NCBI GenBank assembly: GCA_030679975.1
Contig: JAUXSL010000102.1
Span: 1-46,221 of the forward strand
Direction of reading: 5' to 3'
Origin: Actinomycetota bacterium
GTDB taxonomy: Bacteria; Actinomycetota; Aquicultoria; CAJVYJ01; JAUVQD01
Length of the DNA: 46,221 nucleotides
Notes under the pieces: generated by a model
Told to the model about the DNA's origin: nothing
The model's database searches: none
What the model saw: only the letters and a program-made list of their open reading frames with translations
Made by a program: the position numbers and the translations under genes
In this document: piece after piece, positions 7,357-26,361 of the stretch
Numbering within the stretch: the stretch's first letter is position 1
Layout of the letters: the number at the start of each line of letters is the position of its first letter

Positions 7357-7399
7357 TGTTGTTAGGGAATTTACCGCCGGTTGGGATTGGGAATATCTA

Positions 7400-7605
7400 G
7401 GAGTCTGTCTAAGTACTCCCGACGATAGCGAAAATCCGGAGGGCGAGTCGTCCGGCAAGGCGCGATAGGCCTCGGGGTCCCCGCGAGGCGGACTTTGTCT
7501 CGTGGGGCAAGGCGACGCGTAGCGGTAGCTACTCGGAGGAGTCGCAACGCAGCCGGCGGCCGGCATCCGGATTTGCAGCCGGAGTGGAGTATTTAGACAG
7601 ACTCC
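7400..7605. mobile_element. MITE-like palindromic element, family A copy 1 (206 bp), intergenic between divergent genes
   Basis: 20-bp terminal inverted repeats GGAGTCTGTCTAAGTACTCC / GGAGTATTTAGACAGACTCC (1 mismatch), flanked by TA at 7398-7399 and 7606-7607; homologous inverted copy at 25136-25298; no transposase. Confidence 0.9.
7474..7507 (+). repeat. 34-bp REP-like hairpin module nested in MITE A1
   Basis: GGGGTCCCCGCGAGGCGGACTTTGTCTCGTGGGG; lies in a ~43-bp segment absent from copy A2; homolog at 19798-19831. Confidence 0.85.
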
Positions 7606-7634
7606 TAGCCAAAGCCGAATTAATGCGAGGTGCC

Positions 7635-16531: not shown

Positions 16532-18741
16532 AATCGCAGCCTCTTGAGCGACACAGCGTTGACCGCTACGATTATCGATGAGGCCGACATCAGCAGGGCC
16601 GAAATCTCCGGCCGCAGTACTACCCCGTAGGATTTGTAAAAGACGCCGGCGGCCACCGGGATCGCCAGCACATTGTAAATGGCGGCCCAGAACAGGTTCT
16701 GCTTCATCTTCCTGACCGTGGCCTTGCTTAGGCGGATGGCTGAGAGAATGTCGGCCGGGTCCGATCTCATCAGGACGACCTTGGCCGTCTCAATCGCCAC
16801 GTCGGTACCGGCGCCGATGGCGATGCCGATATCCGCCTGGGCCAGCGCCGGGGCGTCGTTGATGCCGTCGCCGACCATGGCCGTGAACTTGCCCTCATCC
16901 TGCAGTTTTTTGACGTGAGCCGCCTTGTCGGCCGGCAGCACCTCGGCAAAGACCCGGTCGATGCCCAGTTCGCTCGCGACAATGTCGGCGGTGGCCCGGT
17001 TGTCGCCGGTTATCATAACCGCTTCAATGCCCAGCGCTTTAAACCCGTCGATAGCTTCCTTGGCGGTCGGCTTAACGGTGTCGGCGGCGCCGATCACCCC
17101 GGCCGGACCGCCGTCCGATGCTACCAGCATTAGCGTGTTCCCTTGTTGTCGCAGTTGATCGATAGATGGTTGCAGGTTTGAGAAATCTATTTTTGATTCG
17201 GTCATGAGTCGCTCGGTCCCCACCAGCACCGCTTGACCGTCGAGCCGGGCTCTTATGCCGCGGCCGGGTATGGTCTCGAAGTCGCCGGCGTGGGCCGGCA
17301 ATGCCACACCGCGCCTTTCGCCTTCCTCCAGGACGGCGATGCTTAGGGGATGGGTCGATCGTCGTTCGGCTGCCGTTGCCAGTTTAATAACTTCGTCCTC
17401 ATCGAACCCCCCGGCGGCGGCTACTCCGGTCACCCGCGGTTTACCCTCGGTCAGGGTGCCCGTCTTATCGAGGATGATCGCCTGGATCCTCGACGTTTCT
17501 TCGAGGGTCGAGGCGTCTTTAATGAGTATGTTATGCCGGGCGCCGATGCCGGAGCCGACGGCGACGGCCGTCGGAGTCGCCAGACCCAGGGCGTCCGGGC
17601 AGGCGATGACGATGGTTGAGATGGCGAAGGTTAGGGAGACCAGCAGCCCCGCGCCCTGGCCGAAAAACCAAAATACGAAGGCGGTTATACCGGCGCCGAC
17701 CGCCAGCACGACCAGATAAGCGGCTGCGCGATCGGCGAGGCGCTGCCCCGGCGCCTTGGAGTTCTGGGCCGTTTCGACCATTTTCACGATTTGCGCGAGG
17801 ACGGTATCCCCGCCGACTTTTGTGGCCCTGAACTTGATCGAGCCGGTCTGGTTGATGGAACCTCCGACCACCCCGTCCCCCGGCTTTTTTTCAACGGGCA
17901 GCGATTCGCCGGTCACCAGGGCTTCGTCAATCAGAGTCGTGCCTTCGCTCACGCTGCCGTCGACCGGCACCTTATCGCCCGGCCGCAGGATCACCACATC
18001 CCCGACGGCGATTTCGGTGCTGGGGATGGAAATCTCGGCGCCGTTACGCTCAACCAGGGCCTTGGGCGGCACCAGGTTGAAGAGCGCCGTCAGGGCGTCG
18101 GACGTGCCCCGGCGCGAGCGCATCTCCATCCAGTGGCCGAAGAGAACAAAAGTTACCAGCAGGGCCGCCGCTTCAAAAAATGTCTCCTGACCCAGAGGGG
18201 TTAGAACGACGCTGAAAAGATAGGCCGCCAGGACGCCGGTTGAAATGAGGACGGACATGTTCAACATGCGTTGTTTAAGCGAGTAATAGGCGCCGACTAT
18301 GAAGATCGAGCCGGCCCAAAAGACGACCGGCGTGGTGAGCAGTAAAAGGAGCCAATTGACCGGGATAGGCGTCGGCAGGCGAATCCCCAGGGCCATGGCG
18401 GCCGGCGAATAAAGAAAGATCGGGATAGACAGCAAAAGGGAGATAAAGAAGCGCCGGCGCATATCGGCTTCCATTTCGGCGGCCATGGCCGGGTTGGACA
18501 TGGCCGCCTCGTGGTCGGCGTGCGAAGCCGTTCGCATATCATGGCCCATACCGGCGTGACTTTTGTGTTCATCGACTCGATATTCGTATTGCTTGGCTTC
18601 AAGGTCACAGCCGCAGTTGACGGCCAGGCGCTCGGCGACACAGCCGGGGCAATTCTCGGAACAACAATCGCATTTTAAGGGCTTTGAATCAACGTTCGGG
18701 GGATGATGCGAATGTTCGCGTTCGTGTTGGTGAGAGCTCAT
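16528..18741 (-). CDS. copA: P1B-type heavy-metal (copper) translocating ATPase
   Basis: TGES, CPDALGLATP, DKTGTLT, HP, GDGINDAPALA, YN and MSASS motifs; His/Cys-rich N-terminus. Confidence 0.9.
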   Translation of the reverse strand: MSSHQHEREHSHHPPNVDSKPLKCDCCSENCPGCVAERLAVNCGCDLEAKQYEYRVDEHKSHAGMGHDMRTASHADHEAAMSNPAMAAEMEADMRRRFFISLLLSIPIFLYSPAAMALGIRLPTPIPVNWLLLLLTTPVVFWAGSIFIVGAYYSLKQRMLNMSVLISTGVLAAYLFSVVLTPLGQETFFEAAALLVTFVLFGHWMEMRSRRGTSDALTALFNLVPPKALVERNGAEISIPSTEIAVGDVVILRPGDKVPVDGSVSEGTTLIDEALVTGESLPVEKKPGDGVVGGSINQTGSIKFRATKVGGDTVLAQIVKMVETAQNSKAPGQRLADRAAAYLVVLAVGAGITAFVFWFFGQGAGLLVSLTFAISTIVIACPDALGLATPTAVAVGSGIGARHNILIKDASTLEETSRIQAIILDKTGTLTEGKPRVTGVAAAGGFDEDEVIKLATAAERRSTHPLSIAVLEEGERRGVALPAHAGDFETIPGRGIRARLDGQAVLVGTERLMTESKIDFSNLQPSIDQLRQQGNTLMLVASDGGPAGVIGAADTVKPTAKEAIDGFKALGIEAVMITGDNRATADIVASELGIDRVFAEVLPADKAAHVKKLQDEGKFTAMVGDGINDAPALAQADIGIAIGAGTDVAIETAKVVLMRSDPADILSAIRLSKATVRKMKQNLFWAAIYNVLAIPVAAGVFYKSYGVVLRPEISALLMSASSIIVAVNAVSLKRLRL

Positions 18742-19672: not shown

Positions 19673-19676
19673 TTGG

Positions 19677-19866
19677 AGAACGCGGCCCAAAGCCCCAGAT
19701 GCAAGCTTGCCCCGTACGTCGATACGGGGGCAGACGAACACCGAGGCGAGGGAGCGTATGTGCGATTACGTGACCGAGCCGAGGTGGAGGATAACCCGGG
19801 GTCCCCGCAAAGCGGACTTGGCTTTGTGGGGTGGAGCGTCGCAGATGGGGTTTTCAGCCGCGTTCT
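19677..19866. mobile_element. MITE-like palindromic element, family B (190 bp), carrying two nested hairpin modules
   Basis: Terminal inverted repeats AGAACGCGGC / GCCGCGTTCT with imperfect extension (AAAGCCCC..TGC / GCA..GGGGTTTT); nested CCCCGTA-cgtcga-TACGGGG at 19710-19729 and the 34-bp GGGGTCCCC module at 19798-19831. Confidence 0.8.
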
Positions 19867-19878
19867 AGAGGTGCGCCT

Positions 19879-25038: not shown

Positions 25039-26361
25039 ATGGCAAAAAAACTGGGATTCATAATCGTTTTTCTTTTGTGCGGCGCCATCCAAATCGGCGT
25101 TGGCACGGCCGTCGCCGAAATCGTCCCGGCCCATAGGAGCCTGTCTAAGTACTCCACTCCGGCTGCAAATCCGGTATGGCGGCCGCCGGCTGTGTTGCGA
25201 CTCCTCCGAGTAGCTACAGCTACGCGTCGTCCTCGCGCCTTGCCGGACGACTCGCCCTCCGAATTTTCGCTTTCGTCGGGAGTAATTAGACAGGCTCCTA
25301 GCATCTCATCACCTTCCGCGTTTCTTCTGGATGTACGGACCGGTCGTGAGCTCTTCTCCAAGGAAGCTTATAGCCAAAGACCGATCGCAAGCACGACCAA
25401 AATACTGACGGCTCTGGTGGTGATGGAAAAATCCAGCCCAAACGATGAAGTAGTTATCAGCGCCAACGCCGCATCCACTGGAGGCGCGACTATTGGTCTT
25501 AAGCAGGGAGAGCGGCGAAAGGTAGGGGAATTGCTGGAGGCGCTGATGCTGGCCTCGGCAAATGATGCGGCCGTTGCTCTTGCCGAACACGTTGGCGGAA
25601 GTGTTGCGGGGTTTGCGCGGATTATGAATGAAACAGCCCAGTCGTTGGGCGCCAAAAACAGCCGGTTCATGAGCCCCAACGGTTTGGCCCCCGGCAACCT
25701 GCATTATTCAACAGCCGAGGACTTGGCCCGCATAGCCCAAGCGGCTATGAAAAAAGATGAATTCAGGATGCTTGTTTCGACGCGCAGATACACCTGGGAA
25801 ACGACGGAGTCGAGCAGACCGACGTTATTGACTAACAGCAATAATTTACTGGAAAAATATCCGCCCGCGACTGGGATAAAGACAGGCTATACAAATGAGT
25901 CAGGTTACTGCCTGGTGGCCAGCGCCACCAAGGGGGAGCGGTCGGCGATAGCGGTTATTCTGGGCAGTCCGTCAAGAGACGCCTCGTTTAACGATGCCCG
26001 CCAATTGCTCGATTGGGCTCTCGATCGTTTTGAATTTATGCAGGTAGTCAAAAAGAGCAGACGGTATGGCGTTCTAATAAAAGCCGGTCTTTCGGTGCCC
26101 CTGGTCGCTGATAAGACGTGGGAGGAGCTCGTCTACAACGGTGCCGACGGAGGGCCGGTTTTGAAAGCGTTGATTAAAAAGGGGGTAAAGCTGCCCATAA
26201 CTAAGGGGCAGAGAGTGGGGGAATTGGCAATAATGCGCCTGGGCAAAAAGGTCGGCTCCGTTGGGTTGTTAGCGGGCAGATCGGCAGCCGATCCTTACGT
26301 GGCAGGCAGTATTCAAGATTACTTCCGACGGGTTGTCAAAAAGATAGAAAATCTGCTTTAA
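25039..26361 (+). CDS. dacA: D-alanyl-D-alanine carboxypeptidase (peptidase S11) carrying a 55-codon in-frame element insertion
   Basis: Signal peptide; ASTTK (SxxK), SAN (SxN), KTGYT motifs; PBP5-like C-terminal domain. Confidence 0.88.
   Translation: MAKKLGFIIVFLLCGAIQIGVGTAVAEIVPAHRSLSKYSTPAANPVWRPPAVLRLLRVATATRRPRALPDDSPSEFSLSSGVIRQAPSISSPSAFLLDVRTGRELFSKEAYSQRPIASTTKILTALVVMEKSSPNDEVVISANAASTGGATIGLKQGERRKVGELLEALMLASANDAAVALAEHVGGSVAGFARIMNETAQSLGAKNSRFMSPNGLAPGNLHYSTAEDLARIAQAAMKKDEFRMLVSTRRYTWETTESSRPTLLTNSNNLLEKYPPATGIKTGYTNESGYCLVASATKGERSAIAVILGSPSRDASFNDARQLLDWALDRFEFMQVVKKSRRYGVLIKAGLSVPLVADKTWEELVYNGADGGPVLKALIKKGVKLPITKGQRVGELAIMRLGKKVGSVGLLAGRSAADPYVAGSIQDYFRRVVKKIENLL
25136..25298. 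mobile_element. MITE-like palindromic element, family A copy 2 (163 bp, inverted relative to copy 1), inserted in frame in dacA
   Basis: TIRs GGAGCCTGTCTAAGTACTCC / GGAGTAATTAGACAGGCTCC; TA at 25134-25135 and 25299-25300; 163+2=165 bp=55 codons, no stop. Confidence 0.9.

What the first reader, a model, noticed from the sequence alone, without database searches (positions are those of the whole stretch)
7474..7507. 34-bp hairpin module shared by two different host elements, with structure-preserving covariation
Seen: GGGGTCCCCGCGAGGCGGACTTTGTCTCGTGGGG (7474-7507, in MITE A1) and GGGGTCCCCGCAAAGCGGACTTGGCTTTGTGGGG (19798-19831, in MITE B) differ at 6 positions. Two pairs are fully compensatory (G-C to A-T), one is G-T to G-C, and one change is in the loop. 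The 11-bp stem and the 5' GGGGT tail are preserved. The module is absent from copy A2, so it is an independent insert. Inference: a REP-like unit with a 5' tail plus hairpin, resembling substrates of HUH/RAYT tyrosine transposases, that targets other repeats, i.e. a parasite of MITEs, with selection on ssDNA/RNA structure.
Basis: partly seen in the sequence, partly recalled or inferred. Interest (0 to 1): 0.75.

Follow-up and report, generated by a model that had tools for sequence, protein, structure and literature searches.

The report
Widespread mobile 42-base hairpin module
The 34-base hairpin shared by two unrelated small repeats is a real, separately inserted DNA module, and the same tag-plus-stem design turns up in dozens of copies in bacteria labelled as nine phyla, with no known transposase tied to it.

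Summary
Observation confirmed. Both 34-mers sit at 7474-7507 and 19798-19831 and differ at six positions exactly as described.

The genome holds 14 copies. Four of 11 stem pairs show double compensatory changes.

The hairpin in MITE A1 is a derived 45-nt insertion. Three other A copies here, and every A copy I found in two related genomes, lack it. The module also sits at three places in family B, two in a third family, and elsewhere. It comes as a 36-45 nt unit, mostly 42, with no target duplication and no inverted ends.

Unexpectedly, the same design recurs in genomes labelled as nine phyla, in viral contigs, in head-to-tail arrays with 9-11 nt spacers, and in frame inside an ABC-transporter gene. 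The design is a GGGGY tag, an invariant CCCCGC/GTGGGG foot with a G·T wobble, and a free but paired upper stem. Copy numbers reach 3-77 per genome against 0-1 for a reversed control.

The RAYT idea failed every test I could run.

Best reading: a REP-like, strand-asymmetric DNA hairpin module mobilised in trans by an unidentified enzyme that reads tag and foot. I judge it a new variant of a known kind. No paper containing its sequence words in a bacterial repeat context was found.

The parts
7474..7507 (+). Hairpin H, copy in MITE A1: GGGGT tag, then a 12-bp stem with a G.T wobble at the fifth pair
   Evidence: CM hit at 56.2 bits.
7465..7509 (+). The whole 45-nt insertion in A1 relative to hairpin-less A copies (9 nt + H + 2 nt). 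It lies at the 5' edge of a predicted loop of the host element.
   Evidence: Alignments. Fold of the empty copies A2 and A3. A copies in G006 and G021 lack it.
7397..7608 (+). MITE A1, the host element, with terminal inverted repeats CTAGGAG...CTCCTAG
25134..25301 (-). MITE A2, a hairpin-less copy of family A (the empty site)
19798..19831 (+). Hairpin H, copy in MITE B
   Evidence: CM hit at 59.7 bits.
19795..19839 (+). Span that holds the 42-nt insertion in B. It reads either as CCC+H+TGGAG or as H+TGGAGCGT; the boundary is ambiguous by 3 nt.
   Evidence: Alignment of filled copies (C26, C30, C13, C1) with empty B copies (C6, C100, C73, C47, C107, C106, C82). G006 copies.
19675..19868 (+). 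MITE B, the host element: mosaic family with inverted ends, 12 nt upstream of the next gene's ATG
19710..19729 (+). Second optional small hairpin in this B variant (CCCCGTA...TACGGGG), absent from most B copies

Best explanation
H is one member of a large, cross-phylum family of REP-like DNA hairpin modules.

The unit is about 42 nt. It has a single-stranded GGGGY tag, a stem whose lowest six pairs are invariant (CCCC-G-C against G-T-GGGG, with a G.T wobble), an upper stem and loop that vary freely as long as they pair, and an 8-9 nt 3' linker.

The unit is non-autonomous. It is copied into new places independently of the elements that carry it. Those places include the interior of other repeats (MITE families A, B and C here, and the loop of another hairpin repeat in an alphaproteobacterial MAG), sites directly beside existing units, and occasionally sites in frame inside genes.

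I infer that it moves as folded single-stranded DNA, and that a trans-acting enzyme reads the tag and foot. That would explain why only those parts are conserved.

Shown: independent insertion, no target duplication, no inverted ends, conserved structure, strand asymmetry, fixed-spacing arrays, patchy cross-phylum spread.

Inferred: the ssDNA intermediate, and the existence and nature of the enzyme. The enzyme does not look like a Y1/RAYT transposase.
For: Independent insertion:
- A1 carries a 45-nt insertion that 3 of 4 full A copies here lack. All A copies found in G006 (at least 5) and in G021 also lack it.
- Closely related B copies (96% identical) differ by presence or absence of a 42-nt block.
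- Family C shows two further filled/empty sites.
- In total there are six insertion sites in three or more host families. Blocks are 36-45 nt, and four of the six sites have 42-43 nt blocks. None of the six comparisons shows a target duplication.

Structure:
- Own genome: 14 copies, 10 distinct. 96.3% of cells pair, 4 of 11 pairs change on both sides, and 0 of 500 shuffles reach the covariation score.
- Across phyla: 116 hits, 101 distinct. 98.8% of cells pair, 0 of 500 shuffles.
- In the stretch the search pattern left free, there are 2.68 further contiguous pairs against 0.66 in shuffles. A.C occurs in only 3 of 333 purine/pyrimidine cells.

Tag and foot:
- Pattern hits per genome are 3-77, against 0-1 for the reversed control, in 10 genomes.
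- With the fifth pair left free, 175 of 225 hits keep G.T.

Other points:
- Head-to-tail arrays have 9-11 nt spacers in at least four differently labelled phyla. Neighbouring units carry different upper stems in 3 of 4 pairs in G070.
- A 41-42 nt unit sits in the loop of a host hairpin in G069, beside an empty copy of that hairpin.
- There is no sense-strand bias relative to genes. G070: 4 sense, 6 antisense, 6 convergent, 1 divergent. Own genome: 5 sense, 2 antisense.
- Distribution is patchy: 2 of 61 relatives carry it. 74 viral contig loci also carry it.
Against: - No mobilising enzyme was found, so mobility is inferred from filled and empty sites only.
- The insertion boundaries shift relative to the hairpin. 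The 5'/3' extras are 0/8, 2/6, 4/5, 9/2 and 6/1-2, which a simple fixed-end element does not predict.
- Predicted folds place only the A site, the post-TIR-L site of B and the G069 site in loops or unpaired stretches. The two other B sites are paired in the minimum-energy fold.
- In Clostridia, a Gaiellaceae MAG and this genome's B family, H directly precedes a similar GAGG..GAGCG..ATG..GCGA module. That arrangement could be an old composite element rather than a repeated insertion.
- The cross-phylum set was collected with a pattern that fixes tag and foot. Their invariance is therefore partly by ascertainment. Only the own-genome CM hits and relax it.
- Many carriers are MAGs.
- No RNA data were available.
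Confidence: 0.55

Rival explanations
1. One reading: H is a REP proper, cut and pasted by a RAYT or IS200-like Y1 HUH transposase. The GGGGY tag plays the role of GTAG.
For: - The anatomy fits: a 5' tag plus an imperfect palindrome, a strand-specific mismatch, insertion without duplication, and arrays.
- The genome has one Y1_Tnp gene fused to a DnaA-C-like domain. PF01797 scores 56-58 bits. NCBIfam REP_Tyr_transpos scores 62 bits, below its cut-off of 80.
- That gene's 5' flank is lost at a contig end.
- 6 of 11 H-bearing genomes have a PF01797 match.
Against: - 5 of 11 H-bearing genomes have no PF01797 match at E<=0.01, among them genomes with 27, 39 and 32 copies.
- Homologues of the own Y1 protein occur in 33 of 61 relatives, but H occurs in 2 of 61.
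- Only 1 of 18 Y1 loci scanned with filters off has an H-like hit, and it is weak and about 1.3 kb from the gene.
- A loose regular expression for H-like hairpins found none in 8 Y1 or TnpB loci.
- The 14 copies here are singletons, not inverted doublets.
Confidence: 0.15
2. H is a functional RNA hairpin, for example a transcript-end or 5' stabiliser or a protein-binding site. It is kept by selection in transcripts and spreads passively with the repeats that carry it.
For: - The G.T wobble is fine in RNA, and the H strand folds better than its complement in 13 of 14 copies.
- In Clostridia, Gaiellaceae and here, H is followed by a Shine-Dalgarno-like GAGG run and an ATG.
- The B copy in the window lies 12 nt before a gene start.
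- Only 1 of 17 G070 copies lying between two called ORFs is in a divergent spacer.
Against: - There is no sense bias: 4 sense against 6 antisense in tandem gene pairs in G070, and 5 against 2 here.
- No Rfam family matched at gathering score or at E<=1.
- H lies antisense and in frame inside an ABC-transporter ORF.
- Passive spread does not explain the clean 45-nt insertion into family A.
Confidence: 0.15
3. H is not mobile by itself. The repeats are mosaic elements, like pneumococcal BOX elements. Modules such as H are shuffled among them by recombination, template switching or deletion.
For: - Family B is clearly modular, with optional blocks.
- All 9 H copies in G006 sit at one place in B-like elements.
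- H always has the same orientation relative to B at its three positions.
- The shifting boundaries of the inserted block fit imprecise exchange better than a fixed-end transposon.
Against: - Families A and C share no flanking similarity with B at the insertion points, so homologous exchange has no substrate.
- The block length stays near 42 nt at four of six sites.
- In other phyla the unit stands alone between genes, or in arrays of units with different upper stems at fixed spacing.
- It occurs in the loop of an unrelated hairpin repeat in G069.
Confidence: 0.15

Closest known systems
REP elements and the GTAG-/CGTC-tagged palindromic repeat superfamilies (Di Nocera et al. 2013, PMC3733652, passages read; REPIN/RAYT, Bertels and Rainey 2011, PMC3116915, abstract seen in a search listing)
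   Same: A short GC-rich imperfect palindrome carries a conserved single-stranded tag at one end. It is present in many copies, mostly between genes, and forms arrays. Stems are kept by compensatory change. CGTC repeats are also reported without an associated transposase.
   Different: The tag is GGGGY, not GTAG or CGTC. Six stem pairs, including a wobble, are the same across nine phylum labels, whereas REP families are as a rule lineage-specific (recalled). Copies are singletons or direct arrays, not inverted doublets. No RAYT association was found. It is nested inside MITEs.
IS200/IS605 ends and their gene-less derivatives (abstract of Quentin et al. 2018, PMC6006769, seen in a search listing; mechanism recalled)
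   Same: The hairpin is read on one strand only, with a mismatch in the stem. A short guide-like sequence sits 5' of the stem foot. Insertion leaves no duplication. A single-stranded intermediate is plausible.
   Different: There is one hairpin, not a left and a right end. The unit is about 42 nt. No TnpA match was found in 5 of 11 carriers, and no TnpB match in 3 of 5.
Rickettsia palindromic elements (recalled, no paper read)
   Same: A selfish palindromic repeat is tolerated in frame inside protein-coding genes. Here two 14-codon units sit in an ABC-transporter ORF.
   Different: RPEs are about 100-150 bp and limited to one genus (recalled). H units are 42 nt and cross-phylum.
Pneumococcal BOX elements (recalled, no paper read)
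   Same: Composite intergenic repeats carry an optional internal hairpin module of about 45 nt in variable copy number.
   Different: H also enters unrelated repeat families and stands alone.
Yeast mitochondrial GC clusters (Wu and Hao 2015, PMC4478555, Table 1 passage read)
   Same: These are 32-42 nt mobile GC hairpins with no known enzyme. One listed 32-nt cluster contains the same 11-letter tag-plus-foot word, followed by a pairing partner.
   Different: The compartment and host kingdom differ. The likeness may be chance among G/C-only sequences. I did not test it.

Membership tests
REP/RAYT system | Short imperfect palindrome in many, mostly extragenic, copies | tested here: met
   14 copies in 1.76 Mb. 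3-77 copies in ten other genomes against 0-1 for the control. Copies lie between called ORFs.
REP/RAYT system | Conserved GTAG (or CGTC) tag at one end | tested here: not met
   The tag is GGGGT/C in all 14 copies and in the cross-phylum set. The definition comes from passages of PMC3733652.
REP/RAYT system | A RAYT (Y1) gene flanked by the repeats and co-occurring with them | tested here: not met
   1 weak H-like hit in 18 Y1 loci. PF01797 was not found in 5 of 11 carriers. Y1 homologues occur in 33 of 61 relatives against H in 2 of 61. Caveat: the own gene's 5' flank is missing.
REP/RAYT system | Inverted doublets (REPINs) as the replicating unit | tested here: not met
   All 14 copies here are single. 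Elsewhere pairs are mostly direct, with 9-11 nt spacers.
MITE | Terminal inverted repeats and a target-site duplication | tested here: not met
   None of six filled/empty comparisons shows a duplication or ends beyond the stem itself. The hosts A, B and C do have inverted ends.
IS200/IS605-derived element | Two subterminal hairpins and a TnpA (often with TnpB) in the genome | tested here: not met
   There is a single hairpin. TnpB (PF07282) was not found in G000, G070 or G064. For TnpA see the rows above.
Curated structured RNA (Rfam 15) | Match to a family model | tested here: not met
   0 hits on the window at gathering score. Only tRNAs and chance hits at E<=1 on 20 loci.
Integron attC site | Conserved R''/R' core sites and extrahelical bases; cassette context | not tested
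The core motifs are recalled and I did not see them in H. No model was run.

The most novel reading that the evidence does not exclude
H marks a third, undescribed superfamily of 'tagged' palindromic repeats (GGGGY-tagged). Its tag and six-pair foot are the same from Clostridia to Acidobacteriota, and it does not depend on Y1 transposases. It propagates as a 14-codon, roughly 42-nt single-stranded unit, possibly a small circle opened at varying points in its linker. It lands in loops of other hairpins, beside its own copies, and even in genes. Phages carry it between phyla. Finding the protein that reads tag and foot would reveal a new kind of hairpin-specific DNA-moving enzyme.
Probability: 0.3. 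Interest if true: 0.85.

Novelty: new variant of a known kind. Interest (0 to 1): 0.68.

Why it matters
REP-type repeats are usually treated as lineage-specific and tied to a domesticated Y1 transposase. Here the same recognition part (tag plus foot with a wobble) is kept across nine phylum labels, while the rest of the hairpin is free. The expected transposase is missing in about half of the carriers.

This gives a sharply defined bait, a 34-nt oligonucleotide, for finding the protein that moves or binds such hairpins. It also offers cultivated carriers in which to test it.

The work shows repeats colonising other repeats and coding sequence in 14-codon steps. That bears on how intergenic mosaics and small protein insertions arise.

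Tried and rejected
- Rfam, at gathering score and at E<=1: nothing but tRNAs and chance hits.
- RAYT, Y1 and TnpB association: rejected as set out above.
- Genes lying between nearby H pairs in eight loci: only ordinary ORFs in a stop-to-stop ORF listing, not scanned against any family library. No recurrent gene.
- Clustering of translated 300-nt flanks of 122 loci: no recurrent enzyme. It returned only the ABC-transporter host gene and translated non-coding repeats.
- Downstream 'ORFs' after the Clostridia-type H: not conserved as protein.
- Open-frame test for gene orientation in 300-nt flanks: too ambiguous to use.
- RNA evidence: no RNA holder listed.
- Laying metagenome contigs: the window's own contigs break at the repeats. 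Another groundwater run has A-like contigs that skip 46-50 nt at H, but these cannot be assigned to an organism.
- A 'flipped hairpin' reading of the C6 copy: I withdrew it on re-reading. It is the same site and orientation as C78, only without the tag.
- Annotated phage and plasmid collections: no annotation under the Clostridia-type element.
- Looking for the contig that continues the Y1 gene: none found.
- The earlier-findings index by sequence: blank.

Full report
**1.
The two 34-mers are at 7474-7507 and 19798-19831 on the + strand. A pattern made of their shared letters finds only these two sites in the window and none in 100 shuffles. They differ at six positions. Two stem pairs change on both sides (G-C to A-T), one G.T becomes G-C, and one change is at the loop. 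Each folds as a five-base tail plus an 11-12 bp stem. The given strand folds better than its complement: -21.0 against -13.3, and -19.7 against -15.9 kcal/mol.

**2. Census and covariation in the genome.**
- The window is contig C26 of a 1.76-Mb, 127-contig assembly.
- A covariance model built from the copies finds 14 full copies and nothing else above noise. 150 of 1118 first-look candidates were scored.
- A looser search adds two hairpins with the same stem but no tag, at C6:14612 and C86:371.
- Over the 10 distinct sequences, 96.3% of cells pair and 4 of 11 pairs change on both sides. 0 of 500 column shuffles reach the covariation score. Sliding the partner by 1-3 columns drops pairing to 46-65%.
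- Nine of the 10 distinct sequences keep a G.T wobble at the fifth pair.

**3. The hairpin is a separate insert.**
- *Family A.* A1 carries 45 extra bases (9 + H + 2) relative to A2 and to copies on C43 and C112. Every A copy found in two related genomes lacks them: at least five copies in G006 and the copies in G021. Their matches run to query position 64-68 and resume at 114-119.
- *Family B.* This is a mosaic family with inverted ends and about 30 matches in this genome. Copies that are 96% identical differ by a 42-nt block holding H just before the right end. Other B copies carry H inside the core (C10, C29, C23) or just after the left end (C63, C75), always in the same orientation.
- *Family C.* This third family shows two more filled/empty sites (C34; C78 with C6).
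- *Other copies.* C100 lies in a distant B-like element between tRNA genes. The context of C122 is unresolved.
- *Size of the block.* The inserted blocks measure 36-45 nt. Four of the six sites have 42-43 nt. None shows a target duplication. The hairpin sits at different registers within the block: the 5'/3' extras are 0/8, 0-3/8-5, 2/6, 4/5, 9/2 and 6/1-2.
- *Age of the hosts.* B cores without H occur in four relatives that have no H (G001, G003, G005, G007). In this lineage the hosts are therefore older or wider than the hairpin.

**4. Distribution among relatives is patchy.**
Of 61 genomes of the same phylum sample, only G000 (13 exact-foot hits) and G006 (9) have the motif. Two further single hits are not hairpins and match the control rate. 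In G006 all nine copies sit at the same place in B-like elements.

**5. The motif is a cross-phylum family.**
- A scan of one genome per species used tag, foot and three purine/pyrimidine positions.
- The 80 titles shown name MAGs and isolates labelled Clostridia/Bacillota, Actinomycetota, Acidobacteriota, Chloroflexota, Dormibacterota, Alphaproteobacteria, Thermodesulfobacteriota, Cloacimonadota and WOR-3.
- Essentially all hits fold as full hairpins. In the part the pattern left free there are 2.68 further contiguous pairs on average, against 0.66 after shuffling. A.C occurs in 3 of 333 purine/pyrimidine cells.
- 116 model hits (101 distinct) pair in 98.8% of cells, and 0 of 500 shuffles reach the score.
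- Per-genome counts of the exact foot are 6, 3, 27, 39 and 32 and 15, 15, 5, 12 and 77. The reversed control gives 0-1.
- Each genome has its own dominant upper stem, which points to amplification within genomes.
- With the fifth pair left free, 175 of 225 hits in five genomes keep G.T. The rest are mostly A-T, with some G-C.
- 74 viral contig loci also carry the motif, mostly the Clostridia type.
- G063 is flagged unpublished. Only its count of 27 and the three-unit array of L138 rest on it.

**6. How the unit sits elsewhere.**
- Units form head-to-tail arrays with 9-11 nt spacers, giving periods of 41-47. They occur in Acidobacteriota (L072, L129, L131), G063, Dormibacterota (G064), an Actinomycetota MAG (L091) and WOR-3 (G070).
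- In G070, 3 of 4 pairs, and also a triple, have different upper stems. These arrays are therefore not simple slippage duplications.
- In an alphaproteobacterial MAG (G069), a 41-42 nt unit sits in the loop of another hairpin repeat whose empty form lies nearby.
- In five Acidobacteriota-type loci the units lie antisense and in frame, 14 codons each, just before the ABC_tran domain of a transporter ORF.
- In Clostridia a conserved element of about 120 nt begins exactly at H.
- In Clostridia, a Gaiellaceae MAG and this genome's B family, H is followed by a similar GAGG..GAGCG..ATG..GCGA module. I cannot explain this. It weakens the 'repeated insertion' reading for the in-core B site.

**7. DNA or RNA?**
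- Orientation relative to called ORFs shows no sense bias. In G070 there are 4 sense, 6 antisense, 6 convergent and 1 divergent among 17 copies between two ORFs. Another 11 copies were at locus edges and 4 lay inside doubtful ORFs. In this genome there are 5 sense, 2 antisense, 1 convergent and 3 divergent.
- Together with the antisense in-gene copies and the lack of any Rfam match, this favours a DNA-level, one-strand structure over a transcript function.
- Many loops are GNA-type triloops closed by C-G. These are stable in DNA (recalled).
- No RNA run was available.

**8. The RAYT hypothesis.**
- The genome has one Y1_Tnp gene with a DnaA-C-like tail (C118:2-973). It is cut at its 5' end by the contig edge, and there is no H in the DNA held 3' of it, which runs to C118:1858.
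- Its homologues are common in the class (33 of 61 genomes) while H is not.
- 5 of 11 H-bearing genomes have no PF01797 match, among them three with 27-39 copies.
- 18 Y1 loci yield one weak H-like hit about 1.3 kb from the gene.
- TnpB is missing from 3 of 5 genomes checked.
- MAG incompleteness tempers each single absence, but the pattern as a whole gives no support.

**9. Mechanism.**
I commit to a non-autonomous hairpin module that a trans-acting factor recognises by tag and foot on one DNA strand. It is copied into exposed single-stranded spots. Those spots are loops and junctions of other folded repeats (supported at the A site, the post-left-end B site and G069; not at the two other B sites) and the flank of an existing unit. 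The near-constant block length with a shifting register suggests a small circular or tandem donor opened at varying points in the linker. This rests on six events only and is speculation. The rivals are RAYT-driven REP, a functional RNA module, and module shuffling among mosaic repeats. Each is scored in its own section.

**10. Comparison and novelty.**
- The closest known kind is the tagged palindromic repeats (GTAG, CGTC). The CGTC class is also reported without a transposase (passages of PMC3733652).
- H differs by its tag, by the cross-phylum identity of six stem pairs, by direct rather than inverted grouping, and by nesting in MITEs.
- Full-text searches for seven 10-12-letter words of the motif found no paper on bacterial repeats.
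- The REP survey papers I opened do not contain CCCCGC, GTGGGG or GGGGTC. Their supplements were not read and could hold such sequences.
- One yeast mitochondrial GC cluster shares the 11-letter tag-plus-foot word. This may be chance.
- The scan's earlier notes describe other hairpin repeat families, but none with this sequence.

**11. Caveats.**
- Most carriers are MAGs.
- The cross-phylum set was gathered with a foot-fixing pattern.
- ORF calls are crude.
- Taxon labels are those of the record titles.
- No enzyme and no intermediate has been seen.

Noticed in passing
window 19710-19729: A second optional 20-nt hairpin (CCCCGTA...TACGGGG) is present in this B variant and in C30, C6 and C100. 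Most B copies lack it. Family B therefore collects more than one kind of hairpin insert.
   Followed up: partly
G000:C118:2-973 (L001): A Y1_Tnp transposase-like gene is fused to a DnaA C-terminal-like helix-turn-helix. It is cut by the contig end. Homologues, often in several copies, occur in 33 of 61 genomes of the class. Their substrate is unknown.
   Followed up: partly
L144, L159, L040, L187, L204 and about 50 viral loci (L185-L258): Clostridia and their phages carry a conserved non-coding element of about 120 nt. It starts exactly at the hairpin, continues with AGAGGAGG, an ATG and a second covarying hairpin, and ends near GACGA. It is not annotated in the phage or plasmid collections.
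   Followed up: partly
L072:3-674 (minus strand); also L044, L129, L131, L138: One to three 14-codon hairpin units are inserted in frame, just before the ATPase domain of an ABC-transporter gene, at the same place in five genomes.
   Followed up: partly
L174, L086, L121 (WOR-3 MAGs): Runs of a 12-nt tandem repeat (aaaagctggtca-like) lie beside hairpin units. Further small hairpins with their own conserved feet (CTTTTC...GAAAAG, TCCCCC...GGGGGA) lie just upstream of H.
   Followed up: no
window 16830-17280: Summed metagenome contig depth rises 40-fold here in all four runs. Many loose ends occur at 16840 and 16880. This is probably a widely conserved gene segment shared by many organisms.
   Followed up: no
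L179 (G069:C2:33500-39200): Two identical hairpin-in-hairpin composites lie 4.7 kb apart in direct orientation and bracket several ORFs in the stop-to-stop listing, none of them scanned against a family library.
   Followed up: no
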